Below, in pieces: positions 1-44,687 of a DNA stretch of 64,000 nucleotides. The notes under the pieces were generated by a model. The model was not told the DNA's origin. It saw only the letters and a list, made by a program, of their open reading frames with translations, and searched no databases. Location of the stretch: the NCBI GenBank assembly GCA_964016885.1, contig OZ024741.1:172794001-172858000 (forward strand), in the 5' to 3' direction. The DNA is from Eledone cirrhosa (lineage: Eukaryota). Both the position numbers and the translations under genes were made by a program. Position 1 is the first letter of the stretch; each line of letters opens with the position of its first letter.

Positions 1-277
1 TCAGGACTACATATCCAGTGCTTTTATCGAGAATGACACAGCTAGAGACTTATAGAATACTTAGCTGTGTACAGGAACTGGTTTGAAAGAGCGGTTGCCG
101 GTCCGGCAGAAATTAGAAATTGGAATAAATGCTCTGAAATAGCGATATATATGTGAATATAGACATAGAATATTCGAAAATATTCTGTATGTTTATAATA
201 AACATTTTGAAGACCTAATCGCTATAGAATAGAATACGTCACGTATTAAAATTAGATTCTCGATAAAAGCAAGGGAA

Positions 278-320
278 GTAATCTACGCGTTTCATTCTCG
301 TTAGAAATCATCAGGACTAC
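278..320 (-). ncRNA. Type I hammerhead ribozyme (also at 588-630, 898-940, 1208-1250)
   Basis: Reverse complement reads GUAGUC-CUGAUGA-U-UUCU-AACG-AGAA-U-GAAAC-GC-GUA^GAUUAC: canonical core, stem I GUAGUC/GAUUAC, stem II UUCU/AGAA, palindromic stem III ACGCGU. Confidence 0.88.
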
Positions 321-1568
321 ATATCCAGTGCTTTTATCGAGAATGACACAGCTAGAGACTTATAGAATACTTAGCTGTGTACAGGAACTGGTTTGAAAGA
401 GCGGTTGCCGGTCCGGCAGAAATTAGAAATTGGAATAAATGCTCTGAAATAGCGATATATATGTGAATATAGACATAGAATATTCGAAAATATTCTGTAT
501 GTTTATAATAAACATTTTGAAGACCTAATCGCTATAGAATAGAATACGTCACGTATTAAAATTAGATTCTCGATAAAAGCAAGGGAAGTAATCTACGCGT
601 TTCATTCTCGTTAGAAATCATCAGGACTACATATCCAGTGCTTTTATCGAGAATGACACAGCTAGAGACTTATAGAATACTTAGCTGTGTACAGGAACTG
701 GTTTGAAAGAGCGGTTGCCGGTCCGGCAGAAATTAGAAATTGGAATAAATGCTCTGAAATAGCGATATATATGTGAATATAGACATAGAATATTCGAAAA
801 TATTCTGTATGTTTATAATAAACATTTTGAAGACCTAATCGCTATAGAATAGAATACGTCACGTATTAAAATTAGATTCTCGATAAAAGCAAGGGAAGTA
901 ATCTACGCGTTTCATTCTCGTTAGAAATCATCAGGACTACATATCCAGTGCTTTTATCGAGAATGACACAGCTAGAGACTTATAGAATACTTAGCTGTGT
1001 ACAGGAACTGGTTTGAAAGAGCGGTTGCCGGTCCGGCAGAAATTAGAAATTGGAATAAATGCTCTGAAATAGCGATATATATGTGAATATAGACATAGAA
1101 TATTCGAAAATATTCTGTATGTTTATAATAAACATTTTGAAGACCTAATCGCTATAGAATAGAATACGTCACGTATTAAAATTAGATTCTCGATAAAAGC
1201 AAGGGAAGTAATCTACGCGTTTCATTCTCGTTAGAAATCATCAGGACTACATATCCAGTGCTTTTATCGAGAATGACACAGCTAGAGACTTATAGAATAC
1301 TTAGCTGTGTACAGGAACTGGTTTGAAAGAGCGGTTGCCGGTCCGTCTATTCTATAGCGATTAGGTCTTCAAAATGTTTATTATAAACATACAGAATATT
1401 TTCGAATATTCTATGTCTATATTCACATATATATCGCTATTTCAGAGCATTTATTCCAATTTCTAATTTCTGCCGGACCGGCAACCGCTCTTTCAAACCA
1501 GTTCCTGTACACAGCTAAGTATTCTATAAGTCTCTAGCTGTGTCATTCTCGATAAAAGCACTGGATAT

Positions 1569-1611
1569 GTAGTCCTGATGATTTCTAACGAGAATGAAAC
1601 GCGTAGATTAC
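1569..1611 (+). ncRNA. Type I hammerhead ribozyme (also at 1879-1921, 2189-2231, 2499-2541)
   Basis: gtagtc CTGATGA tttctaacgagaat GAAAC gc GTA^gattac, predicted cleavage after 1605. Stem I extends via GGA/UCC and a 16-bp helix attctcgataaaagca (1545-1560) / tgcttttatcgagaat (1618-1633). Confidence 0.9.
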
Positions 1612-2715
1612 TTCCCTTGCTTTTATCGAGAATCTAATTTTAATACGTGACGTATTCTATTCTATAGCGATTAGGTCTTCAAAATGTTTATTATAAACAT
1701 ACAGAATATTTTCGAATATTCTATGTCTATATTCACATATATATCGCTATTTCAGAGCATTTATTCCAATTTCTAATTTCTGCCGGACCGGCAACCGCTC
1801 TTTCAAACCAGTTCCTGTACACAGCTAAGTATTCTATAAGTCTCTAGCTGTGTCATTCTCGATAAAAGCACTGGATATGTAGTCCTGATGATTTCTAACG
1901 AGAATGAAACGCGTAGATTACTTCCCTTGCTTTTATCGAGAATCTAATTTTAATACGTGACGTATTCTATTCTATAGCGATTAGGTCTTCAAAATGTTTA
2001 TTATAAACATACAGAATATTTTCGAATATTCTATGTCTATATTCACATATATATCGCTATTTCAGAGCATTTATTCCAATTTCTAATTTCTGCCGGACCG
2101 GCAACCGCTCTTTCAAACCAGTTCCTGTACACAGCTAAGTATTCTATAAGTCTCTAGCTGTGTCATTCTCGATAAAAGCACTGGATATGTAGTCCTGATG
2201 ATTTCTAACGAGAATGAAACGCGTAGATTACTTCCCTTGCTTTTATCGAGAATCTAATTTTAATACGTGACGTATTCTATTCTATAGCGATTAGGTCTTC
2301 AAAATGTTTATTATAAACATACAGAATATTTTCGAATATTCTATGTCTATATTCACATATATATCGCTATTTCAGAGCATTTATTCCAATTTCTAATTTC
2401 TGCCGGACCGGCAACCGCTCTTTCAAACCAGTTCCTGTACACAGCTAAGTATTCTATAAGTCTCTAGCGGTGTCATTCTCGATAAAAGCACTGGATATGT
2501 AGTCCTGATGATTTCTAACGAGAATGAAACGCGTAGATTACTTCCCTTGCTTTTATCGAGAATCTAATTTTAATACGTGACGTATTCTATTCTATAGCGA
2601 TTAGGTCTTCAAAATGTTTATTATAAACATACAGAATATTTTCGAATATTCTATGTCTATATTCACATATATATCGCTATTTCAGAGCATTTATTCCAAT
2701 ATAAAAATATATATA

Positions 2716-3024
<309 letters not shown>

Positions 3025-11403: not shown

Positions 11404-12050
11404 ATGAGAAGAAAGAAGAATACTGCGTGGTTTGCACATGCGTTACATATGATAAAAATAGTCCTTCGTCAGTGATTTTCCAACCATCATTGGTATTTCA
11501 TCGCATTAAAAATCAGATACCTCAGGTTGGTGCGAGCAATAACTAAAAAAAGTTATTGGGACCAGAATTCGCGTGAGGCGAGGGGGACAAGTAAACAACA
11601 TAGAAGGATAAAAGCAAACCGAAGATAGGAAAATAAACAAGCAACATGGTTGTCCGGTCAGCATAAGCTGGGTGGATTTCATGAGCGAGGGAGGTACAGA
11701 CCGTGTTGATGTGTGTGAGATGTGAGCAAGAAGAGACCCACACAAGCCAAACGGGAGGAAGTGAGAAGGGGAGAAACAGAGAGTGAGTCAGTGGAAGTGT
11801 GAGGAAGAGGTCAGTCGAGAGAAAATGTAACTGACACATGTATGTATGTATATATATATATATATACGCAGAGACAAACAACAATAACAACACACACAAC
11901 AATAATAACAATCACGGAGACAACAACAACACACATCAACAACAGCACACATCAACAACAACAACACCAACACACACACATTCAATGCCTCTCACCACCA
12001 CCACAATCTTAACAAACACACAGACACACAAAATAGAGTAGATAATAACA

Positions 12051-14569
12051 ATGAGCCAGTGGAGAGAGACAGGAGTAATAATGAGAGACAGAAACAACCA
12101 TGAGGCTGTTGGTGGAAATAGAAATAGAAATAGAAACAACACAACTAACAATAACAATAGCACTAGTACACATAAAGCAGCAGCCTGGAACTCTACTTTT
12201 TATAACCCCTCCGATAAGTCATCCGACCTGCGACGAGTCCACGCCACGACTTTACCATTTAACAAACGCACGCAATTGTCGTCGCAGGTCGATGAACAAA
12301 CAGAAGCACAATTTAGTATAGCTAGATCCGAACTTAGAAATATTATAGAACAGTATAGCAAAAAGCATAATAGAATGGAGGCCCAGCAGCTGGGAGAAAA
12401 ATCTGCAAATGGCTTGCGTAAGCTCATGCAGGGCTCGCGTAATGGAGAAATAGCATGCTTTCCAACAGACAAGTCTGGCAGAATGTCGGTTGACAGCCTG
12501 CCAAACTGCATCCAGGCAATGCAACCCCACATCACTAACACAAGAGAAGTAACACCACAGGAGCATGAGGATAGAGAAAAAGCCCTCAATGCCCATATGG
12601 TGATGTGGACGAATATAATGCAGCCCAACAAAAGGACTGCCAACAACTTCCAGGTCTGGAACAATGACGTGCCGGCGTTGTATGGGCTTCGAAAAGACCA
12701 TAAAACGGGCAGTGACCCTGTCACGGGACCACCAACACTGCCAGTCTGTGGAGCTAACATTGCTAGTAACTACAGACTGTCCTACTTCCTCTCCCTGATC
12801 ATATGCCCCATCATTGAAATGTCCCCAGACGTATGTGACAGCACGGAAGACCTCCTCAGCGGAATCGGCGAGAGTAACCGATCTAGGGACCTAACAAACT
12901 GCATAATAGGTAGTATGGATGCTGTGTCCCTGTATCCATCTATTGACGTGGATTTTGCTGTGGAGAAATGCGTAGAAATGATAAGTGAGAGCAATGTTGA
13001 GTTCCGTGGGATTAATACCAGTGAGCTGGGACTCCTACTTAAACTTACCTATAGTAATAATTACCTAGACACATATGACCTTAGCAACCTGTGCCCTACA
13101 AGACCAGCAAGAGGCAGACCACCTACCATTACCTCAATGGCCAAGAAAACCCACACAGATAGATGGAACGGGTGGACCAGAGCCATACGGACACCCGAAA
13201 ACCACGATGAACTGAAGAAAATGATTGCACATGCGGTGGGAGCCAGCATAAAATTAACCCTTAAGGAACATATGTTCAAATTTAATGGAAAAACATATGC
13301 TCAAGAGGAAGGAGCAGCCATTGGTGTTAGCATTGCAGGGGACATAGCTAACTTATTCATGGCATGATGGGACAGTAGACTTAAACTTAAACTTAAAGAA
13401 CAATTAGAAGACCCCTTAACCCTGATAATGTACTCCCGCTACGTTGATGATATAAACATCGTAGTTAAAACACCCCCACTAGAGAACAGTCAGGAATTAG
13501 AGAAAAACACAATGGAAAGCATCCAGAAAATAGCTAACTCCATCCACCAGAGTATTAGAGTTACTATAGACGACCCAAGTAAACATCCCAACCATCGATT
13601 ACCTATACTAGATACAGAGCTCTGGTTAGATACCATTAATAACAAAAAACAAATCCTCCATTCCCATTATGCCAAACCCATGACTTCCAAATATCTGATC
13701 CACCGAAACTCAGCTGTTTCGGACCATAACAAAATCAACATACTGATTGCGGATTTGGTACGGGCGATGAGAAACGTGTCCCGCATGTGCAACCGCAAAG
13801 AACTAGAGATACACATACAACACTTCATCCACCGTATGCAGTTCTCTGGTTACAATCAGAGAGATAAAATCAGAGTGTATAGAGGAGACAGAACCAAATG
13901 GGAAAAAATGGTAAATAATGACACAAATAGGACCTGCCCCTAGTATAGGAGCAAATTTTGGAATAGAATAGAAAGAACTAGGAATAAGGCTAATAGAATA
14001 AACTCATGATATGATAGCAATAAATATCAGAGTGTAATGTTCATCGATACAACCCCTAAAGGTGAATTAGCTTACAAATTTAGATGGGCCCTAGATAAAC
14101 ATAAACTCAATATTAAGATAGTAGAAAGACCAGGTACCTCCGTAAAAACACTTATTAGCAAGACATACATTTTTCAAAGACCCCCTGTATAGATAAGAAA
14201 TGTATAACCTGTAAATTAAGCCCCCATATTAACTGTAAAACTAGAAATGTAGTATATAGCATAAGATGTACTGAAGGACAATGTATAGACAAAAATATAG
14301 TGTACATAGGTGAGACAGCTCGTAGTGTAGGGGAACGGATAAATGAACACTGGCGAGACCTTCAAGATAGTAAAGAATCATCTGTACTCTACCAACATGC
14401 TAAAATAGAACACAAGGGTAAATTAGAGAACATAGAAATAAAAATAGAATCTACACACAGAAAAGACGCAATGTTTAGACAAATCACAGAGGCAATAAAC
14501 ATAAAGGAATTACAACCAAAATTAAATAGAAAATATGAGTGGAACAGCAACATCACAACTTACAATTAA
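12051..14569 (+). pseudogene. Disrupted Penelope RT + GIY-YIG endonuclease polyprotein
   Basis: Motifs PTDKSG, LYGLRKDHK, STEDLL, GSMDAVSLYPS, QEEGAAIG, RYVDD, LPILD, YAKPM, SGY, then C-x4-C-x2-C-x7-C, VVYSIRC-x4-C, YIGETARS...RINEH, H-x4-H, RQITEA, LNRKYEW. Stops at 13365, 13941 and ~14007; frameshift at ~14170-14190. Confidence 0.9.
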
Positions 14570-14764
14570 GGACAAAATGAAAACACACACGCACATAGAA
14601 CAAACAACCAACCTGTAACATGTAAATAAACAAATAAATAAACGAATATAAACACACTCAGACACCCGGATGTGGCGCATGCGCAGACTGAGCACACAAC
14701 ACACACACAAAATGGCGTAGGACAGAACAAAGGAGAGTCACAAAAACAAAGAAAAGACTCCCCA

Positions 14765-14807
14765 GTCACTGAAGAGGTCACAGAATGTGTGACGAAAGAA
14801 CTTTGAC
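14765..14807 (+). ncRNA. Type I hammerhead in the Penelope pLTR (identical copy 16855-16897; decayed copy ~59840-59882)
   Basis: gtca CTGAAGA g gtcaca-gaatg-tgtgac GAAAG aa CTT^tgac. Confidence 0.8.
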
Positions 14808-15013
14808 AATATATAAACAACTATCTGGTTGTGGAACCAACCAACCAACCGGAAATTTATAAATTCCTAAATTTATAAATCTATTATAATAAATTGAAGT
14901 GAAAGCAACTGGTGCGTGTGTTTCTTATTGGCAACATGACCCTCCCAAAGTATAACAATATCGTTTTCAACACACGTTTTCAGATAAAGAATCTTGCTAA
15001 ACAAATTCAGAAA

Positions 15014-15041
<28 letters not shown>

Positions 15042-15810: not shown

Positions 15811-15947
15811 CGGTCAGAAGATTCTATTCACTACGTAGAAGTTTGGCTTTTAGCAGATTCTTCACCACGTGCGAGTTTGGCTCACTACCCTGAGACGCTC
15901 TCTATATCCTCGTGTTCTACACAATTTTGTGTCCCATCAACGTCAGT

Positions 15948-16548
15948 ATGGATTTATACGAACTGGATTACTCCCTGAAGAACATTCCCACTCCCTCCAA
16001 CCATGTTTACCAAAAGCTTCTCCTACAAAAAGCGGAAGATGTCGTCAGACGCTTAAGATGGCGAGCCCTAGCTTTTGACGGCAAAATTGCAGGCACCTTC
16101 AACCTGAAATTGAGAGCCTACCCTCCTAAGGTAACTGAACTTGGTCCTTTCTACGCGGACCTTCTTGACTTAGTCGCTAACATTTCCTTTCGCAAACACC
16201 CTAACACCTTTCAAACTAAATTTAGAAATGATATTAAGAAATTTAGGTCCTCTAATAACACTTTCGTTCTTTCCGACAAAACTAATAATATTTACGAAGT
16301 CGACAACACCACTTTCCGCCACCTGGCCCATAACGCTATTACTTCCAAATATAAGAAAGCTAACCCTATGGCCTACCACGACATTAATACAGAAGCCAAA
16401 GAACTTGCCGCCGCCCTTAAGGTAGATAAGAAGCTACAATCTCTAGCTAAGCGGGAGGCGTTCCTCACCCTGAAAGATCACAAGGTAGACTTTACTTCTA
16501 ACCCCACATGTAGACTAATAAACCCGGCACGCACATTTATGGGACTAG
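15948..16548 (+). pseudogene. N-terminal fragment of the RT ORF of a different Penelope-like family
   Basis: LDYSLKNIP...RRLRWRA...VLSDKTNNIY...AFLTLKDHK...PTCRLINP are PLE pre-RT and RT1-2 motifs. Truncated by an inverted pLTR piece. Confidence 0.72.
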
Positions 16549-16552
16549 TTAT

Positions 16553-17108
16553 ATATTGTTATACGTTGGGGGGGTGGGGTCATGTTGCCAATAAGAAACA
16601 CACGCACTAGTTGCTTTCACCCCAATTTAGGACAAAATGAAAACACTTACAATTAAGGACAAAATGAAAACACACACATACATAGAACAAACAACCAACC
16701 AGTAACATGTAAATAAACAAATAAATAATCAAATAAAAACACACACAGACACCCAGATGTAACACATGCGCAAACTATGCACATAACACACACAAAAACA
16801 AGATGGCGTAGGACAGAACAAAGGAGAGGCACAAAACAAAGAAAAGAATCCCCAGTCACTGAAGAGGTCACAGAATGTGTGACGAAAGAACTTTGACAAT
16901 ATATGAACAATCGTCTGGTTGTGGAACCAACCAACCAACCGGAAATTTATAAATTCTTAAATTTATAAATTTAATTTATAATAAATTGGAGTGAAAGTAG
17001 CTGGTGCGTGTGTTTCTTATTGGCAACATGACCCTCCCAAAGTATAACAATATCAGTTTCAACTCACGTTTTCAGATAAAGAATCTTGCTAAACAAATTC
17101 AGAAACGA
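16553..17108 (+). mobile_element. Solo pLTR of the 12-15 kb element with a short inverted 5' piece
   Basis: 16630-17108 closely matches 14570-15017. 16553-16629 is the reverse complement of ~14890-14962. Confidence 0.85.
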
Positions 17109-17264
17109 AATATATATATATATACACACATAAAGGAACAATCGACTTTCGTCAAATCGGACCGAGGTAACAATGTTTCCATTGGTCTTTCCAATTGCTA
17201 ATATTATCCATCGGTAGCAACTCCAGATAGCAGAAGCAACGTGAAATAAAGTGTCTTCATTTTT

Positions 17265-29222: not shown

Positions 29223-30079
29223 TAATAATTGTTCTACTTTTTCCACAAGGCCAGCAATCACCCCAGTGCATTACTGGTGCTTTATTTTATCGACCCCGTA
29301 AGGATGAAAAGCAAAGCTAACCTCGGCGGGATTTGAACTCAGAACATAAAGGGCCATAACTCTATGCTGAAAATAATAATTGTTTCTATTTTAGGCACAA
29401 GGCCAGCAATTAACCAGTACATTACAGGTACTTTATTTTATCGACCCCGTAAGGATGAAAGGCAAAGTTAACCTCGGCGGGATTTGAACTCAGATCATAA
29501 AGGGACGTAACTCTATGCTTCAAGCATGGTGTCCGACTCTCTACCGATACTGCCAACTAGGCTGCAAATAATAATGATTTCTAGTATAGGCACAAGGCCA
29601 GCAATTTGGGGGGAGGGGAAAGTCGATTAAATCGATCCTAGTACGTTACTGGTGCTTTATTTTATCGACCCCGTAAAGATGAACGGCAAAGCTAACCTCG
29701 GCGGGATTTGAACTCAATACATAAAGGGCCATAACTGTATGCTGCAAATAATAATAATTATTTATTTATTGGCCACTAGGACAAAAACATAAAGGACAAT
29801 ACAAAAGAACCTGGAGTGTAGGGATTTACTTAAACAACAAGTGAGAATTAATAAATCAATTCTTTCTACTTTAGGCACAAGGCCATTAATATGAAGGGCA
29901 GGAGAAAGTCGATTAAATCGACACCAGTGCTTTACGGTACTTTATTTTATCGACCCCGTAAGGATGACAAGCAAAGCTAACCTCAGCGGGATTGAACTCG
30001 GAGAACACAAAAGGGCGAAACTCTATGCTGCAAAGCATGGTGTCTAGCGCTCTACCGATACTGCCAATCCACCGCCCTA
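29223..30079 (-). mobile_element. Tandem cluster of four tRNA-derived SINE copies
   Basis: SINE core repeated at ~29290, 29440, 29665 and 29950. Further dispersed copies at 43055-43245 (+), 43421-43610, 49147-49335, 52213-52365, 56215-56388 (+), 58610-58718, 62287-62480. Confidence 0.85.
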
Positions 30080-31650: not shown

Positions 31651-31948
31651 AGTTGTCAAGCACCCACCTCTACATTCATACACGTACAAATTCACCCACA
31701 CACATACGTACACATACATACGTACACACATACTTCATACATACATATATATATATATACATACATACGTACATACATTCATACATACATACATATATGC
31801 ATACATATATACATACGTACACACATACATTCATACATACATATATACATACATACTTACATAAGTATATAAGTACACACATACATTCATACATACATAT
31901 ATACATACATACGTACATACGTACATACATTCATACATACATACATAC

Positions 31949-33611
31949 AGGAAACAAGGTCGACAAAGAAGTGGGACCAGAAGTATCTCCCATCTTTTCT
32001 TTGTTGATGACCTGAAGTTGTATGGGCCAAATATCAATGACATCAAGAAACAATTGGACCTCATTACACAATTTTCAACCGACATCAAAATGAAATTTGG
32101 TGAGTCCAAGTGTGCATATTTGGCAGTAAAACGTGGAAGAGCTGTGCCCTCCTCTAGAAATCTAGAGATGAACGGCCTGACAATACAACCTCTGCAGTCA
32201 GGTGACAACTACAGATATCTTGGACAGGATGAGAATGTCAGATATGATGGACCCATAAATAAGGAGAGAACCAGAACTGAATACCTCAGAAGAGTAAAGA
32301 AAATATGGTCATCAGAACTGTCAGCATACAACAAATACATTTCCCACAATACTTATGCTGTGCCAATTCTAACGCCAACATTTGGCCTACTGAACTGGTC
32401 ATTGCAAGAACTAAGTGAGATGGATGTTAGAACTCGAAAACTTCTCAGTGTTACTGGGAACTTTAACATCAATGGTGATGTGGATAGGCTATACTTCTCA
32501 CGCAAGGAAGGTGGTCGGGGTCTAAAATCAATATTAACAACATATGAGACCCGGATAGTGACACTGAAGCAACACCTTCAACAGAGGAAAAAGGTTGGCA
32601 ACCATCTTGCCCAGGTTTATGACCATGAAAAAAGAAATATCATTAGAATAGCGACTGATCTGGAGGAGAGATATGGAATAAAGCCCGATATAAATCTCTC
32701 ACCCAGAGAAATCGGAAGATCCTATTCAATGTTCAAACAAGAAAAAAAAATTGACCAATTTACAGAAAAAGTTGTGCATGGATACTTGAGGCGTAAAACA
32801 CAGACCATAGAGGGGATAAACCACTCAAAAAGCCTGGCATGGAGTTCCGACAAGTTTATGACATCACACCTTGAGGGATATCTCTATGCAATACAGGAAC
32901 AAGAACTCCCTACCAAATATCTGCTGCACAAAAGAGGAGGGCCAGCAGCTGACAATAAATGTAGGCTATGTAAAACAAAGATCGAGGATGTAAGCCACAT
33001 TGTTGCCAGCTGCGAAAGAATGTCATCTCGCTACTACCTCCCCATGAGACACGATGGGATAGCTAGAACCATCTGGAACGCACTTCGGAAAACAAAATCA
33101 ACAACAAACGAGGAAGAATATATTGAGACAGATGGCACTAAGGAATACTGGTGGAATCTGAAAATAAAAACTGCCACCAAATTAAAGCACAACCGGCCTG
33201 ATATTGTAGTTTGGGACCACACATTGAAAACGTGTTCTGTTGTGGAGATCAGCTGCCCACTTGATGTAAACGTTGTCAGAAAAATACAGGAGAAGGAGGA
33301 CATCTACGGACCATTGATGAGGAGTTTACAAATCCAGTATCCAAGATACACCTTTAGCTTCATACCCATCATCATTGGTGCTACGGGTTATATACCAACC
33401 CGCTTGGACCAAAGTATGACTGAACTTGGATTTGCGGACAAAAAGCGCAGCTCCCTAATTCATAGTCTACAAATGGCTGCGATAGCTGGCACCTTCAAAA
33501 TTTGCAAAACATTCTTGCGATTCAAGGGATGACAATTTCTTTTCTTTTACAACCTTGCCACCAGGAAGGTGGCCGGTCAAAAAATATACTCAAAATTAAG
33601 AGAAAGAGAAA
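31949..33611 (+). mobile_element. 5'-truncated R4/Dong-clade non-LTR retrotransposon (RT + restriction-like endonuclease) in (TACA)n
   Basis: Motifs ISHLFFVDDLKLY, KFGESKC, YRYLG, DVDRLY..RKEGGRGL, AIQEQ, CRLC-x8-HIVASC, RHD, NRPDIVVWD...VEISCP, PIIIGATG. (TACA)n on both sides. Confidence 0.9.
31951..33532 (+). CDS. Uninterrupted partial ORF: RT C-terminal half, CCHC knuckle, PD-(D/E)xK-type endonuclease
   Basis: ORF-track 504-aa frame, which extends upstream through FVDD with no stops. Confidence 0.8.
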
Positions 33612-34006: not shown

Positions 34007-36425
34007 TAGCAACTAACAGTGTTGCGATCGAATGTGGCTTTTTAGCCCAGCCAATGATCTAAAATGTCTTGCACAGAGTCGGCAACCAAAACATTCACTG
34101 GGAATAGCCGACTGTGGTTGGAGTTCATGTACTTTTGCATGTCGCTTGAGCCCTCCTGCTGATTTACATTCTCTACCACATGCTTGGCAAGCATGATGAG
34201 TAGCATCTCCAACAGCAGCCTGGTAGTCAACCACTGGTCTTACTTTATGACTGCGAAGATGACTTTCGAGTCCAGCTTTGCTTAGGCAGAGTCTCGCACA
34301 GACGCTGCATGTCAGCACCATAGGATGATCCTCGCCGTCTGGAAGTGCAACAGCAATGCCCTTCGTCACATCCCGCTTTACTTTCTCGTATGCGATTCGA
34401 GATGCCTCAAAGGCAACTTTTCCCTCATATACAGTCTTTCTCCATTTATTACGATCAACAGCAATATTTTCCCATGTATCAGCGGAGATGTTAGCGTCTT
34501 TCAAAGAGGCTTTCAAGGAATCCTTATACCTCTTTTTTGGTTTATGTGGCGGTCGTTTTCCTTTAACTAACTCTCCATAAAAGAGTTGTTTTGGTATTCT
34601 AGAATCCTTCATCCTGGCAAGGTGACCACTCCAACGGAGTCGTTTCTTAAGCACAAGAGCTTCTATACTGTCACACATAGAGCTTTCCAAAATCTCGACA
34701 TCACTGATGTGGTCCCTCCAGTGAACGCTATGGATCCGTCTGAGACACATCTGATGGAAACGCTCCAATTGCTTAAGGTGGTGCCGATATGTGACCCAGG
34801 TCTCGCAGGCATAAAGAAGAGAAGAGAGCACCACATGCCTTGTACACCTTTACCTTTGTCTTCTTGCATATGTCTCGCCGACCCCAGAGTCGCCTTTCTA
34901 GCTTTCCGAAAGCATCACTTGCTTTCCTAATCCTAAGTGAGATTTCACTATCAAGGTTGCTGTATCGATTGACAGTGCTTCCCAGGTAGACAAACTGATA
35001 AACCACTCCAAGTCGTTTACCATACACATAGATATTTGGTTCACTGTACTGCTTACCAGGGGCAGGTTGGTACATGTCGACAGTTTTCTTGAGACTGACA
35101 GTCAATCCTAGGGCAGTGCAAGCGTCAGAAAATGCATTCAAAATGTGCTGCATATCACTCTCTGTGTGCGCTACAAGATCGCAATCATCTGCATACAAGA
35201 GGTCTCTTATGATTGATGTAAATACTTTTGTCTTTGCAGCAAAGCGCCTGGTGTTAAATATGCTGCCTGAGGTTCGATATCGGATGTAAACACCATGCTC
35301 GCAATTCCTGAATGCAATACAGAAAACCATTGCAAAGTATATGGCAAACAGGGTCGGTGCTGGAATATCCCCCTGTTTCACTCCATTTTTACTGAGATAG
35401 GCTCCGACATGTTACCTCCGACATTAACCCAAGCCTTCATGTCGTCATGGAAAGACCTAACTAAAGCAAGGAACTTATCAGGGCAACCAAGTTTCTGGAG
35501 AACCTTCCATAATGCATTTCTGTTAACAGTATCGAAAGCTTTTGTCAGATCGACAAAAACCTGATACAGATACAAACTTTGTTCCATGCACTTCTCCTGG
35601 AGCTGTCTAGCTGAGAAGATCATATCAGTAGTGCCGCGTCCAGCACGAAAACCAGATTGACTTTCAGGAAAAACACAATCTGCAATGTATCAGCAGACGG
35701 TCCAGAAGCACCCTACATAAAACTTTCTCTATGACAGAAAGCAATGATATACCTCTGTAGTTCCCACAATCATTTCTGTTACCCTTTCCTTGAACAAGAC
35801 CACCATTACTGCATCTCTCCAGTCCTCATGTACAGATTCATTAGCCCATATCCTGCCAAACAAAGAGTGAAGATGTTGCAGGAGTCTCTCACTACCATAT
35901 TGTAGGAGCTCAGCATGTATGCCATCCATACCTGGAGATCTTCCACTGTTCAGCTTCGAGATAGCTACTGCAACCTCCACAAGCGTCGGAGGTTCTGCGA
36001 GAGCTACTTTCACAGGACATTCTGGAATGAGATTGAGGAAATCTTCATTGACGACAGACGGCTGATTCAAAAGATCATCAATGTGCTCTCGCCACCTTCG
36101 TAGAATTCCTTGTGAGTCACGAAGAAGTTCTTTGCCATCTTTGCTGCGAAGCTGTGTCACCAGAGAAGAAGACGGTCCATAAACTTCACGCAAGAGACTG
36201 TACAACAGCTTTGTGTTATTGGAATCTGACGCAGTTTGTATCTCATCAGCCTTCTCACTCCACCACTGATCCTTCATCTGAGAAAGACTCCGCCTAACAC
36301 GTGATTTTACATCCTTGAGTTCCTCATGCAACGTACTCCTCACCTGTGGTTTTGCCGTCAAGTAGCGTGACAGAGCACGCCTCTTATCAGCCAACAAGTC
36401 TTCTATATGCACATCATTCTCATGT
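33749..36425 (-). mobile_element. RTE-clade LINE, 5'-truncated and frameshifted, with three C-terminal C2H2 fingers
   Basis: Motifs [81 protein letters not shown]...H/CQAC...H/CRLC...H. 3' UTR is split by microsatellites. Confidence 0.92.
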
Positions 36426-36811
36426 AAGGGAGCTTATAGATAGGACAAGAACACGCTGTCTTTTCGTGGGGTAAGTTTTTAATTAATTTTTGTATTCTGA
36501 AACATCAAAATACAACATACATACATACATACATACATACATATGTACAGATAGATAGGTCGATAGATAGATATGTTTCTTTATTAGCCACAGGAGCACA
36601 AAAGAAGGGGACAAATACAAAGGGGTAAGTTTACATACAATAAAAACGTGTAAAATGTTATCACAAATGTAATTTTAAAATTAATCGATTATCCCCAATA
36701 GGAGGAGACATTTCATATGGGTAGCACATAGCCCCGAAAAAATGTGCAACCCTCATCTCCAGGAGTACGAAGAGTTTGTACCCCTTTCCTCTCTTCCTCT
36801 TTTTACTCAAC

Positions 36812-39800
36812 CTACAGGCTGATATAGAGAGAAGGCCCATTCACTCGGGCCATTCTCACCACTTTCACCCACCTTTCATAAAACTTGCTGGGGTACAGCA
36901 CCTCTCTCTCGATCCTGATTCTTCTTCCAAAGTGGTATTTGAAAAAAAGAATCAGTTGTTGGCCGGCTAGAAAGGTGTCTGACCTCAGCCCTTTTAACCT
37001 TGTCCACCATACAACCTCTTTCGCCATAGCTATCACACAAAGGAAAACCGATTCTCCTTCGTTTTTGAAGGAGGGTGGCGGTTTGATCATGACAATGGAC
37101 TCGGTGCTCAACCGGATTGGTCCCACCCGCGACAATAGCCGTTCTACATAGCCCCACAGATCGGTAAAGACCGGGCAGTGTATGAATGCGTACGCGACGG
37201 TTTATTCGTCTCGCACGCATCTCGGACAGATCTTTTTCGAAGGGTCCCTGCCCGGGCGCCCATGTCTGTAGAGCTTGTCTCGAACTGATAGAGCTCCTCA
37301 GTAGCAGTGCCAGGCCAAGGACTTTGGAAGTTGTCCATCGGTCCCGGGCGGAAGGTCCTACCGAACAGACTGCCCAGTTCGTCTTCCTCTACGCCTAGAG
37401 TTTCTCCGAGCGCGTCGTCGCACCTGCTGCGGATCAACCCTCTATAGAATGACGAAGTGGAGTCTCCACTGATCACCGGGTCCGCCTGCCAGAAGGCTGT
37501 GAGAGCCTGAGCACATTCGATGTGCCAGTCGCCCATTTTCTTCGGTCTTTTCTTGTCCCAGGACTGCAGCTCGGTCAGCGAGATGAGTCGTTGGAAGGCT
37601 CGCCTCACGAACGGGGCCCACACCGGTTGTCCGGTGAGGAATACGTAGAGATGCCGCAGCCTGAGCGCGTGTTTGCGCATCGTCAGCCACGGCATCCCCG
37701 GCCCTCCGTTCGAAGGGTGTTGGCAGCAGATGGATCTTCTCACCAAAGGAGCCCGCTTCTTCCAAAGGAATTGGAAGAGCGGACGCTCCATTTTGGTGAG
37801 CGTTTTGGCTGGACAAGGCACGACGGTCAAGCGGTAGTAGATGACGGACGCTATAAAAGTGTTCGCCACCTCCGCTCGACCTTTCATGGATAGTTTGCAC
37901 TCGGCCCACTTCTGCGTGAGTGCAAACACCTTGGCCGTAACCTCGTTCCAGTTCTTCTCCACCTGGAGATCCGGACCAAACCAGACCCCGAGCAGCTTCA
38001 CCGGTCCTTCCGTACAGCGTCCGACGACGACCCCATCGGAAGCATCGGTTTGCCTCTCCAGGATCCGAGTTGAAAACCGATGGACTTGTCCCGGTTCAGC
38101 TTCGCTCCTATGAACCGTTCATATTCCGTCAGTAAGGTGCCGACTTCATCGATTTGCGATGTGCTCGGCAACATTACTGTCACGTCATCGGCGTAGGCCG
38201 ACGCCGCTTTCCGCAATCCCGGTTCTAGAGGGATGCCCTGCAATAGCTCCAACTTCCGCAGTGGTGGATCGTGAGTCAGTACGTACAGAAGGGAGGAGAG
38301 AGGGCATCCCTGTCGGATGGATCGCGTGATATGGAACGGCTCCGAGAGGTAGCCGTTCACCTTGACCCTTGAGCAGATGTTGCTGTGTGCATTGCAACAA
38401 TCCAGCCTCTGAACACGGATCCGAAGCCTGCCGCCTCGAGCACTGCATCCAGGTAACGATGGTCAACCCTATCGAAAGCCTTAGACTGATCTAAGTTGAT
38501 CAGGGCTCCACCGAAGCCGGGTTTACACCCTACCCTCTCTACGATGTATCGCATGAGGTGGAGGTTGTCATGTATGGACCTAGTCGGGACTGCGTATGTC
38601 TGCGCTTCTCCCACCAGGTTTTCGACGACAAGCGCCAGCCTCTTTGCCAACACCTTGGCCAAAATCTGTAACTTTGTGTTTAGCAGAGTTATGGGCCGGA
38701 AGTTGCCTATGTCATCCCCCTTATTCTCGTCCTTCCTAACTAGTGTGACTACGCCCCTGGTCACAGAACTAGGCATTCTCCCGTTCTGCTGCCAGTTGCA
38801 GTAGACCGCTTCCAGGAGACCGGAGAACAAGTCCTACATTGTTACGTAAAATTCGTAGGTTAGACCGTCGAGACCTGGAGATTTGCGTTTGCCGCATTGG
38901 CTCAGCGCGTCCCCTATCTCAGCGGCTGAAATCGGCTTTTCGCAGAACTTCGCCTCGCTGTCCGAGAGTCGCGGTAGGCCGTCGAGGTATGGACAGAAAT
39001 CCATAGCCCTTCCCGGCGCGCCTCCCTGCCCGAACAGCTGAGCAAAGTGCCGCTGAAAGGCCACGCACATCTGCTTCGGCTCAAGTATCACGCGTCCGTC
39101 TTGGTCCTTCAAAGACCGAATCGTGGACTTTTTGCCACTTTTCGCCTCCGTCACCCGGGCCCAGCTAACAGCTTTGGCTCCCTCGTTACCCAGAGCATGT
39201 ATTTTGCTTCTGACAACGCAGCCCTCGTGTTTTGCGTCGAAGAACTGGTCCAAGGCCGTTCTCGTTGCTAGCACGCTGGCTACGTTGCCACTTCTAATTG
39301 CCTCTTCTACTTTATCTACCAGTTCCTTCTCGGTCCTATTTCTATCTAACGTTAATTCTTTACTAAAGACTAACGAGTCTAATCTAACTCTAATGTAATC
39401 TTGAGAGAGTACCATCATCTGTTGTTGACAATGACCCCTGTCAAGTACTGTTTAACTAAAGTGATAATCCGTCTACTGTAGGTTTTGCATGTCGGTAACG
39501 ACAAGTTCAGCTTCCAGTAGCCGGGTCCTTGTCTATGGATTCTATCAAGGTTGATCATGCAGGTCACTAGTTTGTGATCTGAATAGGCAACCATGAACAT
39601 GTATGGACAGCTTAACATGTCCCTATCCTTATTTCTAACTAGAACCCTATCTAGGTACGATCTAGATGTTCCGCTACGATTAGTCCACGTCCACAGTGGC
39701 ACAGTCGGAAAATCTAGTTGATATCTATCGGCCAGGTCAAATCGGCCGATCAACTGTTTGAGGCTGTTACACCCCCCTTTATCGGGACATGCTCCCACAT

Positions 39801-42590: not shown

Positions 42591-43954
42591 TGCACATGTA
42601 TATCTATTATCCACATGTGCATGCATATATGTGCTTCTGTTTGTGTAAAAACAAATAGGGCGGGGGGTAAGAGTGAGGGGAGAAGTCATATATATGTAGA
42701 TGAGGATCTATTATCCACTTATGCATTCATACATATATACGTGTGTTTATGTGTATATGTGTGTGTGTATGTTTGTGACTGTGTATGCTCATATACAGTA
42801 TGTATGTAAATTTACGTATTTGTATGTACGCATGCATGCGTGAGTGCATATGTGTATGTGCACGTGGCTGTATGCGCGTGTGACTGTGTGTGCGATTGTG
42901 TATGCAAGTCTTTATGTTTGTATGTTGTGAACTGGTGTGTATGCACGTGGCTATACATGTGTTTTTCATACGTGTTTTTATGTGTCTCTGAGTCTCTTGC
43001 CTTGTGTGTTCCTTTATAAATCGACCCCAGAACTTATTTGCTATATTATTTTTAAGGGCGGTGGATTGGCAGTATCGGTAGCAGGTCGGATGCCTTGATT
43101 TGCAGCATAGAATTACGTCTCTTTATGGTCTGAGTTCAAATCCAGCCGATATTAACTTTGCCTTTCATCCTTACGGGATCGATAAAATAAAGTGCCAGTA
43201 ATGTACTGGAATAATTGCTGGTCTTGGGCCAAAAGTAGAAACAAATATTTTTATCGTCCCTTGAAGGATGCGAGGCATTGTTGACTTCGGCAGGATTCTA
43301 ATTGAGATTCCAAAAGGGCGCAACATCCTGTTATTCAATCTCGGACATTTTGGATTCTGGTAATTCGTAAATATATTTTGCAAAAGAGAGAAAGAAAGAG
43401 TTGGGGGTCTAGATGCACCATAATAGTTTCTTATATAGGCACAAGGCCAGCAATTAGCCAGTACATTATTGGTACTTTATTTTATCGACCCGGTAAGGAT
43501 GAAAGGCAAAGTTAACCTCGGCAGGATTTGAACTCAGAATGACAAGAGCCGTAACTCTATGCTTCAAAACATGGCGTCCGACCCACTACCGATACTGCCA
43601 ATCCATCCATCGAGACCTATAATAATGGTTTCTTATATAGGTACAAGGCCATCAATTTATTGGACATTGAACCCTAACAGAGCGCATCACCACTCCAGGT
43701 CTGTACACAACGGATTTCTTCCAAGGAAAGAGAGTGAATGAGAGAGAAAGTGGGTAAAAGCTAAGGAGCAAGAATCAACACTAGTAATGAATACATGTAC
43801 ATATACATACACATGTATAGATGTGTGTGTCTCTAATTTTCCATCCCGCTCACTTATGTATATATATATATATATATATATATACATACACATTTATATA
43901 TATATATACATACACATTTATATATATATATACATATATATATGTGTGTGTGTG

Positions 43955-44548
43955 TGAATGTATATATAGTGTATTTTTCAATAAACTGTATGCTTAATTA
44001 AAAGCATTTTGAAGACCATACGCTATTGTTTAAAAGTAGCGACAATGTCACTTACTTAAATTTTCAGCAAACAGGGGAGATAAGCTGACAGAGCTCTGTT
44101 TCGTACTTGTTGGTACTTATCAAAGTTCACTACTCTCCCTGTTTGCTGAAAATTATGTATGTTGGATTCTTATAGAATTCCATTAAGTACCAACAAGTAC
44201 GAAACAGAGTTCTGTCAGCATATCTCTCCTGCTTGCTGAAAATTTAAGTAAGTAACATTGTCTCTACTTTAAAACAATAGCGTAAGGTCTTCAAAATGCT
44301 TTTAATTAGGCATACAGTGTATTGCAAATTACACTATATATACATTCACATATATATATCGCTATTTCAGAGCACCAATTCTAATTTTTAATTTTTGTTG
44401 GACCTGCAACTGCTCTGAATAATCAGTTCCTGATTATCACTGGAATTCTATAAGAATCCAACACACATAATTTTCAGCAAACAGGGAGAATAGTGAGCTT
44501 TGATATATATATATATATCTCGCTATTTCAAAGCCGCAATTCTAATTT
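43955..44548. mobile_element. Second retrozyme-like family: one 320-bp monomer (44184-44505, +) with an inverted partial copy (43955-44182)
   Basis: Shares blocks with the 310-bp unit (atagcg..aggtcttcaaaatg, attcacatatatatcgctatttcagagca, cagttcctg, attctataag). The monomer starts and ends inside the ribozyme core, implying a 320-bp period. Confidence 0.8.
44081..44130 (-). ncRNA. Type I hammerhead with U3-A8 core
   Basis: Reverse complement: gaact TTGATAA gtac-caacaa-gtac GAAACAGAG-CTCTGTC^agctt. Stem I extends as aattttcagcaaacagggaga / tctcccctgtttgctgaaaatt. Confidence 0.78.
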
Positions 44549-44687
44549 ATATATATATATATATATAATTATACATATATACATATATATATATACATAC
44601 ATACATAAACCTATATATATATACATATATATACATACATATACATATACCTATATATATATACATATATATATATACATACATATA

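What the first reader, a model, noticed from the sequence alone, without database searches (positions are those of the whole stretch)
43955..44548. Sister 320-bp family keeps the same RNA architecture by compensatory change
Seen: it is colinear with the 310-bp unit. Conserved blocks (aggtcttcaaaatg; attcacatatatatcgctatttcagagca; cagttcctg; attctataag) alternate with helices whose sequence is replaced but still pairs. Extended stem I is attctcgataaaagca/tgcttttatcgagaat versus aattttcagcaaacagggaga/tctcccctgtttgctgaaaatt; atgttt/aaacat becomes atgctt/aagcat; the UUCG-capped hairpin becomes GCAA-capped. The plus copy is exactly one circularly permuted monomer (44184-44505) opened within the ribozyme core. 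Inference: selection acts on the whole ~310-320-nt RNA fold, the template was circular or multimeric, and the conserved blocks may be RT or protein recognition sites.
Basis: partly seen in the sequence, partly recalled or inferred. Interest (0 to 1): 0.85.

Follow-up and report, generated by a model that had tools for sequence, protein, structure and literature searches.

The report
Penelope-driven hammerhead retrozyme lineage
This is a decayed copy of a roughly 320-base repeat, present in thousands of copies, that carries a hammerhead ribozyme motif whose base pairs are kept while its letters change between subfamilies; it likely spreads as a small RNA circle copied back into the genome by Penelope-like retrotransposons, a known kind of element.

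Summary
The locus is one insertion: a minus arm (43953-44187) with a complete type I hammerhead motif, a plus arm (44184-44505) and a short tail, flanked by AT-rich microsatellite. It is one of at least nine subfamilies of 310-321 nt; a shared 19-mer occurs 21,203 times in the genome. Compensatory change is strong in the ribozyme arm (24 of 31 pairs, about 10 expected), including the C3-G8/U3-A8 core pair. It is weak elsewhere (4 of 46), and two helices are refolded in the 310 family, so selection on the whole fold is only partly supported. The opening in the core is chance: 5' ends are scattered. Instead, 3' ends fall at two fixed sites about 26 nt apart, usually one on each arm of an inverted pair, running into (TA)n. 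Young, intact Hydra-type Penelope-like elements in this genome insert the same way. Each young 310 array is clonal, which fits copying of one RNA circle. Verdict: a new member of the non-LTR retrozymes (non-autonomous Penelope-like elements). Expression, cleavage and the helper element were not shown.

The parts
43953..44187 (-). Inverted, 5'-truncated arm (subfamily A1); its 3' end is at the AT block next to the (TA)n/(TG)n tract
   Evidence: 96% to the A1 consensus, unit positions 78>309
44059..44154 (-). Complete ribozyme arm: extended stem I, type I hammerhead with U3-A8 core (44123-44117), stems II and III; predicted cleavage between 44087 and 44086
   Evidence: Motif scan, coordinates; weak Rfam HH9 match, 18.9 bits, below the gathering score of 52
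44184..44505 (+). Plus arm: one 320-nt monomer plus 2 nt, starting at the inversion junction and ending in a jump or deletion to the TA tract; its hammerhead halves are in the wrong order (3' half from 44184, predicted cleavage after 44216; 5' half ending 44505)
   Evidence: 93% to the A1 consensus
44285..44298 (+). Conserved, largely single-stranded block aggtcttcaaaatg, shared with the 310 family
44316..44335 (+). Hairpin with 4-nt loop (GCAA here, UUCG in the 310 family); two compensatory pairs across subfamilies
   Evidence: helix 13
44344..44385 (+). AT block plus cgctatttcagagca plus about 26-nt tail region: the two fixed 3' termini of the family map here
   Evidence: 104 of 127 segment ends; 21,203 genomic matches of the 19-mer, control 0
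44424..44454 (+). Blocks cagttcctg and attctataag; helices here are conserved in the 320 group but refolded in the 310 family
44469..44489 (+). 5' strand of extended stem I (its partner is at 44223-44244, earlier in this permuted copy)
44511..44551 (+). Tail piece ending at the second fixed terminus, followed by (TA)n
   Evidence: 85-88% match
1..2700 (.). Sister 310-nt family (E1) array: minus arm 1-1345 (continues outside the window) and plus arm 1346-2700, each unit with a C3-G8 hammerhead

Best explanation
The locus is a decayed copy of a 310-321-nt repeat lineage whose units carry a type I hammerhead motif and end at two fixed sites in (TA)n, and it is likely a non-LTR retrozyme: a non-coding passenger predicted to self-cleave, circularise and be copied into the genome by a Penelope-like element's reverse transcriptase and endonuclease. 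SHOWN: the motif in every subfamily; covariation in the ribozyme arm; fixed paired 3' ends; scattered 5' ends; head-to-head inversions; clonal young arrays; the same end geometry in an intact Hydra-type element of this genome. INFERRED: (1) tandem transcripts cleave, as dimers where stem III is only 2-4 bp and self-complementary, and are ligated into circles; (2) the endonuclease nicks both strands of a (TA)n tract; (3) each 3' end primes on the RNA at one of two AU-rich sites about 26 nt apart; (4) the enzyme runs round the circle, making unit repeats, and the two truncated cDNAs join head to head, often at short inverted microhomologies; (5) selection acts on the replicating RNA of successive master lineages, while inserted copies such as this one decay.
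For: RNAalifold on an automatic alignment of 21 natural copies recovers stems I, II and III unprompted; 26 of 59 pairs have a both-sides change. On a named structure, 94.0% of cells pair versus 87.3% shuffled (0/500) and 34-43% when slid. Subfamily table: 28 of 77 pairs compensatory versus 8.1 +/- 2.3 in 5000 re-pairings that keep each column's history; without the 310 family 23 versus 5.0. Single-copy mutations break pairs in 222 of 302 cases and compensate in 8. 104 of 127 segments end at one of two sites and 85 of those 104 run into TA repeats; 32 of 42 inverted loci have one end of each type and 1 has the same type. In similarity-picked sets it is 27 of 49 and 14 of 18. A young Hydra-type element (150 of 150 scored hits at 99-100% identity, 717-aa ORF, 3,531-bp tandems) has inverted truncated arms and two fixed ends in (TA)n. 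Papers describe these hallmarks for Penelope-like elements (PMC8557442) and the circle-and-helper model for retrozymes (PMC7229834). Eleven 310 arrays carry 8 haplotypes, each fixed in all units examined, on both arms in the 9 arrays where both were sampled.
Against: No autonomous element sharing the unit's sequence was found among the Penelope-like families sampled; most 3' regions were read for only 520 nt. The tail is about 26 nt, shorter than the published 30-40 nt and the 83 nt of the active Hydra element. Rfam gathering scores are not reached. Subfamily A2 keeps only 2 of its 6 changed pairs relative to A1. F arrays are less clonal: one array has 3 partly shared and 7 single-unit variants. 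Private mutation rates in stems (0.0140) and core (0.0097, 10 events) are slightly below other sites (0.0165), not identical. In one preprint only 1 of 9 predicted Xenopus retrozymes cleaved in vitro.
Confidence: 0.85

Rival explanations
1. Same element class, but the template is a linear, uncleaved multimeric transcript of a clonal source array, not a circle. The ribozyme would only trim transcripts.
For: Clonal arrays would also result from copying a homogeneous source array; 3 of 11 arrays share one haplotype and 2 share another. Full 3.5-kb autonomous units also occur as near-identical tandems. Arms of the older subfamilies reach only about 2.3 units.
Against: Arms of 9 or more units would need many ribozymes to stay uncut. 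5' ends show no pile-up at the cleavage site (4 of 127, 2.8 expected), which a partly cleaved linear pool might give. Circles are the abundant form in coral, mussel and axolotl (PMC7229834).
Confidence: 0.3
2. A dispersed satellite whose apparent covariation is made at the DNA level by palindrome-correcting template switches, with no selection on RNA.
For: Extended stem I is a long inverted repeat, and 5' or inversion junctions are somewhat commoner near its 3' strand (21 of 127 in unit positions 177-208). Reverse strands fold about as well.
Against: G.U occurs at 13 pairs on the ribozyme strand versus A.C at 3; DNA copy-correction would give perfect complements. The non-helical 3-8 pair covaries in 21 of 21 copies. 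The catalytic core is kept in all nine consensuses.
Confidence: 0.05
3. A rolling-circle DNA (Helitron-like) or extrachromosomal-circle mechanism spreads the tandem units; the ribozyme is a relic.
For: Tandem units with clonal sequence fit any rolling-circle process.
Against: Scattered 5' truncation, head-to-head inversion and two staggered 3' ends match the Penelope-like element in the same genome. The ribozyme kept compensating through successive subfamilies. Helitron termini were not formally tested.
Confidence: 0.05
4. This particular locus is a host-co-opted structured RNA.
For: The minus arm retains a complete hammerhead motif.
Against: The copy differs 4-7% from its consensus, with pair-breaking changes in both arms, and the plus arm's ribozyme is split. 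It is one of thousands of similar copies.
Confidence: 0.02

Closest known systems
Non-LTR retrozymes of animals (Cervera and de la Pena 2020, PMC7229834; Li et al. preprint 10.64898/2026.07.22.740005)
   Same: Non-coding 150-450-bp AT-rich tandem units, each with a type I hammerhead; thousands of copies; proposed circular intermediate and Penelope-like helper.
   Different: Here a series of at least nine subfamilies gives direct covariation evidence, and the copies show helper-type end geometry (two fixed ends, inversions, (TA)n target). 'Inverted' and 'microsatellite' have 0 occurrences in the main text of PMC7229834. Expression and cleavage are not shown here, and no matching pLTR was found, whereas 24 of 57 Xenopus families matched Repbase elements, 21 of 22 of them Penelope-like.
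Penelope-like elements, Hydra clade (Craig et al. 2021, PMC8557442)
   Same: 5' truncation, partial tandems, inverted 5'-truncated copy, tail at one end, (TA)n insertion, hammerhead in the terminal repeat. Hydra-type elements with RWR, DKT and CxCX5C motifs are abundant and young in this genome.
   Different: No open reading frame; tail about 26 nt; no sequence identity with the sampled autonomous families.
Penelope-type hammerhead variants with U3-A8 core and palindromic helix III (Cervera and de la Pena 2014, PMC4209133)
   Same: U3-A8 in place of C3-G8; short self-complementary stem III suited to dimeric cleavage; consensus families rich in covariation.
   Different: Here both core states alternate within one lineage (U-A in A, D, F; C-G in B, C, E), and stem I is extended by a 13-16-bp helix that covaries strongly.
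Twin priming of L1 (recalled, no paper read)
   Same: Two target ends prime separately and give a head-to-head inversion.
   Different: Both arms here begin at almost the same template position and each can run several units, which a linear L1 RNA cannot supply.

Membership tests
Non-LTR retrozyme | Type I hammerhead motif in each repeat unit | tested here: met
   All nine subfamily consensuses; blind consensus fold
Non-LTR retrozyme | Tandem units of about 150-450 bp | tested here: met
   Units of 310-321 nt; arrays of many units in E and F, up to about 2.3 units per arm in A-D. This locus has less than two ordered units.
Non-LTR retrozyme | Low GC, non-coding, no LTR structure | tested here: met
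   GC 0.35-0.39 over the locus; no credible ORF of 150 aa or more over it; unit lengths change by non-multiples of three. PBS/PPT were not searched.
Non-LTR retrozyme | Expressed as linear and circular monomer RNA | not testable with these tools
   No RNA holder was listed; the runs laid are contigs of unknown kind
Non-LTR retrozyme | Self-cleavage | not testable with these tools
   Needs in vitro transcription
Non-LTR retrozyme | Long target-site duplications when present | tested here: inconclusive
   Ends lie in TA repeats, so duplications cannot be read
Penelope-like element (insertion type) | 5' truncation, partial tandems, inverted 5'-truncated copy | tested here: met
   42 of 68 pattern-picked loci have both orientations; 5' ends are scattered
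Penelope-like element (insertion type) | Tail extension at one end only | tested here: met
   32 of 42, 27 of 49 and 14 of 18 inverted loci have one end of each type; tail about 26 nt rather than 30-40
Penelope-like element (insertion type) | (TA)n target as in Hydra, Neptune and Naiad | tested here: met
   85 of 104, 101 of 127 and 30 of 37 fixed ends are followed by TA repeats
Penelope-like element (autonomous) | Own RT plus GIY-YIG ORF | tested here: not met
   No ORF in the unit; PLE ORFs near loci are mostly separate insertions. It can only be non-autonomous.
Penelope-like element (non-autonomous derivative) | Sequence shared with the pLTR of an autonomous partner | tested here: inconclusive
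   No match in the families sampled, but the first look found 57,834 candidates and only 150 were scored per search
Type I hammerhead ribozyme | Conserved core with 3-8 pair, GAAA, NUH site and three stems | tested here: met
   pair 10.1-11.1 is U.U or A.A in B2, D and E
Type I hammerhead ribozyme | Rfam family gathering score | tested here: not met
   Best 18.9 bits to HH9 (gathering 52) for the minus arm; no hammerhead listed for the 310 unit. This excludes those Rfam families, not the motif.
tRNA-derived SINE | tRNA-like head | tested here: not met
   ARAGORN finds no tRNA gene in 6 of 6 loci; a degenerate head is not excluded

The most novel reading that the evidence does not exclude
This lineage records the Penelope integration mechanism directly: one circular ribozyme RNA is primed twice, from both strands of a nicked (TA)n target, at two sites 26 nt apart, and copied round and round into a clonal inverted array. 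Its ribozyme arm is an exchangeable module: the 310 family took its core and stem II from an unrelated hammerhead element (family X) while keeping the priming scaffold. With about 18,000 near-identical young units and intact helper elements in the same genome, it would be a ready system for reconstituting Penelope and retrozyme transposition.
Probability: 0.35. Interest if true: 0.75.

Novelty: new member of a known kind. Interest (0 to 1): 0.5.

Why it matters
The class is known, but two of its steps are still hypotheses in the papers read: that Penelope-like enzymes mobilise animal retrozymes, and that a circle is the template (PMC7229834 discussion; preprint). PMC8557442 says the Penelope cycle has still undefined features and calls for an in vitro system. 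This lineage offers genomic evidence on both: helper-type paired ends and clonal two-armed arrays. It also gives a natural series of hammerhead variants, with the core 3-8 pair in both states, and separates an RNA into a covarying catalytic arm and a sequence-fixed scaffold that holds the termini. The 310 family alone is about 18,000 units, roughly 5.6 Mb.

Tried and rejected
Rfam scan of the whole window: only microsatellite-driven microRNA matches below gathering among the 150 of 250 rows shown. Expression: no RNA holder listed; 6 runs of unknown kind from 4 organisms and 4 studies hold 0.84-0.94 of the 310 unit's words. Pieces of the 320 unit are present in the 4 runs laid (9, 4, 2080 and 1 contigs), which cannot show strand, ends or level. 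Helper search: three own-genome protein searches, tblastn and ORF scans of fetched loci, 520 nt downstream of 22 endonuclease ends, the whole 3.5-kb young unit (best local score 19-23, null 23.2) and loci L318-L362 gave no pLTR match. Apparent PLE-retrozyme neighbours L149, L276 and L291 are separate insertions split by TA tracts. L015 and L024 join a Hydra ORF directly to a retrozyme, but two cases cannot separate template switching from deletion or insertion. Pfam did not recognise the three window PLE fragments. 'Opened in the core' and 'ends at the cleavage site' were rejected. Special-tetraloop swap was rejected. A Pol III A/B-box reading was considered by eye only (box consensus recalled) and dropped because the candidate B box is not conserved across subfamilies. 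Earlier scan findings: none returned. R-scape, CMfinder, Repbase and Dfam were not available.

Full report
Observation. The window lies in a 3.0-Gb assembly. The region 43953-44551 is one composite insertion: a minus arm (unit positions 78 to 309, 96% to its subfamily consensus), a plus arm of one monomer (93%) and a short tail (85-88%), flanked by AT-rich microsatellite. Its similarity to the 310-nt array at 1-2700 is far above chance (score 133 versus 20.0 +/- 2.5 in 300 shuffles). The quoted blocks are present. The quoted perfect helices come from the minus arm, and the plus arm carries pair-breaking changes. Both units fold better than shuffles (z -3.6 and -6.0).

Family size. A 19-mer shared by both families occurs 21,203 times, with a reversed control of 0. 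A 310-specific 20-mer occurs 18,031 times and a 320-group 22-mer 4,369 times; the latter undercounts diverged copies. From the fetched loci I extracted full units, kept the 172 of 300-330 nt, left two mosaic-looking units (L142, L155) out of the families and grouped the rest by reference and diagnostic motifs into nine subfamilies: A1 (this locus), A2, B1, B2, C, D, F, E1 and E2. Mean divergence from own consensus is 5.0, 2.6, 3.5, 3.7, 2.6, 5.3, 1.0, 0.7 and 1.3%. These values are biased low because many loci were top hits. Consensuses are 61-98% identical to each other.

Ribozyme. Every subfamily has a type I hammerhead motif. The core pair 3-8 is U-A in A, D and F and C-G in B, C and E, and is a standard pair in 21 of 21 natural copies. 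U3-A8 is a described Penelope variant (PMC4209133, passages). Stem III is short and self-complementary in all lineages (a perfect 6-nt palindrome in E), the arrangement that paper links to dimeric cleavage. Rfam gives only a weak HH9 match, below gathering, and none for the 310 unit.

Covariation. RNAalifold on a MAFFT alignment of 21 contiguous natural copies recovered stems I-III unprompted, with 26 of 59 pairs changed on both sides. A named 70-pair structure gave 94.0% paired cells against 87.3% in shuffles and 34-43% when slid; 20 pairs had both-sides changes against 14.5 (2/500). These shuffles ignore relatedness. I therefore hand-registered 77 pairs across the nine consensuses, leaving out one hairpin not alignable in E and the low-complexity AT hairpin, and re-paired whole columns at random. 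Observed 28 compensatory pairs, null 8.1 +/- 2.3, 0 of 5000; without E, 23 versus 5.0. The signal is in the ribozyme arm (24 of 31, null 10.2). The rest has 4 of 46 (null 1.9, 436 of 5000) and is conserved mainly by invariance. The helices were chosen from these same sequences, so the paired fraction is inflated by construction. Against a whole-fold reading: E breaks 5 of 8 and 2 of 7 pairs in two helices, F breaks 3 of 5 in another, and A2 keeps only 2 of 6 changed pairs. As a control, single-copy mutations in 155 copies (E2 and near-duplicates dropped) broke pairs in 222 of 302 cases and compensated in 8, whereas differences between A1 and C, F, B1, D and E1 kept pairing in 7 of 9, 15 of 22, 14 of 18, 15 of 18 and 21 of 31 cases (not independent of each other). 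G.U appears at 13 pairs on the ribozyme strand and A.C at 3. Selection therefore acts on the RNA of propagating lineages, and little if at all on inserted copies.

Ends. In 68 loci (this one plus 67 picked by position from a pattern list), 104 of 127 segments end either at the AT block (44) or about 26 nt further on (60); the picking pattern overlaps the tail and favours the second class. 85 of the 104 run into TA repeats. 42 loci have both orientations; 32 have one end of each type and 1 has the same type. In 96 similarity-picked A-D loci the figures are 27 and 4 of 49, and in 21 F loci 14 and 1 of 18. The 310 arrays show the same two ends. 5' ends are scattered: 6 of 127 in the core (4.4 expected) and 4 at the cleavage site (2.8 expected); 77 of 127 segments cross the cleavage site. 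The plus arm's opening in the core is thus an inversion junction on the left and a jump or deletion into the tail on the right, as also seen in L005 and L027. PMC8557442 (passages and section 11) lists 5' truncation, partial tandems, an inverted copy, a one-sided 30-40-bp tail and (TA)n targeting as Penelope-like traits.

Helper candidates. The window holds a Hydra-type fragment (RWR, DKT; 17,022 first-look candidates). A second family is very young: 150 of 150 scored hits at 99-100% identity, a 717-aa ORF in 3,531-bp tandems, a U3-A8 hammerhead motif, inverted truncated arms and two fixed ends 83 nt apart in (TA)n. A third lineage has frames of 713-715 aa. None shares sequence with the unit. 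The geometry argues for this enzyme class; the specific partner is unknown.

Template. In 11 distinct 310 arrays, each carries one haplotype in all units examined (8 haplotypes, 2 single-unit changes), including both arms in the 9 arrays where both were sampled. This fits repeated copying of one circle, but also a clonal linear multimer. F arrays are less uniform.

Module exchange. Another abundant hammerhead element (family X; 39 motif hits in the loci held, some loci overlapping) shares the core, the U.U-flanked stem II and the GUA site of the 310 family almost letter for letter, but has the ACAG/CUGU stem III of A-D and different termini. About ten shared positions are not dictated by the ribozyme, so common origin is likely (inference; no tree built). 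Part of the 310-versus-320 difference may thus be a swap. Covariation stands without E.

Literature. Non-LTR retrozymes are described in PMC7229834 (passages and sections 14 and 17) and linked to Penelope-like pLTRs in preprint 10.64898/2026.07.22.740005 (parts 1-3 of 5). Searches combining octopus or cephalopod with retrozyme, hammerhead or Penelope terms (listings only) and a general retrozyme search showed no paper on this family. Supplements were not read, and those of PMC4209133, PMC7229834 and PMC8557442 list species and ribozymes that could include it; repeat databases could not be searched. The host taxon was not established.

Verdict. Real, structurally selected, and of a known class: a non-LTR retrozyme lineage with unusually clear Penelope-type integration marks. 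Confidence 0.85 for the class and helper type, and about 0.6 that the template is a circle. Interest 0.5.

Noticed in passing
L308-L317 (for example G000:C1:437198500-437217500): Very young Hydra-type Penelope-like element: intact 717-aa ORF, 3.5-kb units in near-identical tandems, U3-A8 hammerhead motif with long stem II, two fixed 3' ends 83 nt apart in (TA)n.
   Followed up: partly
L355-L360: Second Hydra-type lineage with 713-715-aa frames and its own hammerhead motif in the pLTR; many copies give identical scores.
   Followed up: partly
L025:2545-2762, L095:3559-3771, L332, L341, L344: Family X: short abundant hammerhead element in (TA)n with two fixed ends; many copies begin 5-7 nt before the core, often at an inversion; upstream parts vary and some have a TATA-like motif about 35 nt upstream. 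Its core and stem II match the 310 family.
   Followed up: partly
window 12042-14570 and 14570-15015, second terminal repeat 16600-17110: Broken Penelope-like element with C-terminal GIY-YIG-type domain and hammerhead-like terminal repeats ending in (TA)n; clade not tested.
   Followed up: partly
window 15894-16610: Hydra-type PLE fragment (RWR and DKT motifs), member of an older family at about 90% amino-acid identity.
   Followed up: partly
window 2717-2921: Short inverted fragment resembling the terminal region of the young Hydra-type element, directly beside the 310 array.
   Followed up: no
window 3489 (-) and 17681 (-): Two further hammerhead-like motifs from other families.
   Followed up: no
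L015:1037-1996 and L024:869-1995: Hydra-type ORF fragments joined directly to A1-type copies without a TA tract; L015 looks like one chimeric insertion flanked by TA repeats.
   Followed up: partly
subfamilies A-D versus F and E: Arm length falls with age: at most about 720 nt in A-D, up to 1,947 nt in F, 9 or more units in E; either later loss of tandem units or a change in copying.
   Followed up: no
L011, L016, L021 (stem I) and L095, L029, L156 (stem II): Compensatory pairs also segregate inside subfamilies A1 and A2; the window's minus arm carries only one half of the stem I change.
   Followed up: no
window 29223-29519 and 43060-43620: Dispersed SINE-like repeat, partly in 151-bp tandems; resembles cephalopod tRNA-derived SINEs (recalled, not tested).
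   Followed up: no
window 31865-33532, 34013-36433, 37144-39451: Broken LINE-type reverse transcriptase frames.
   Followed up: no
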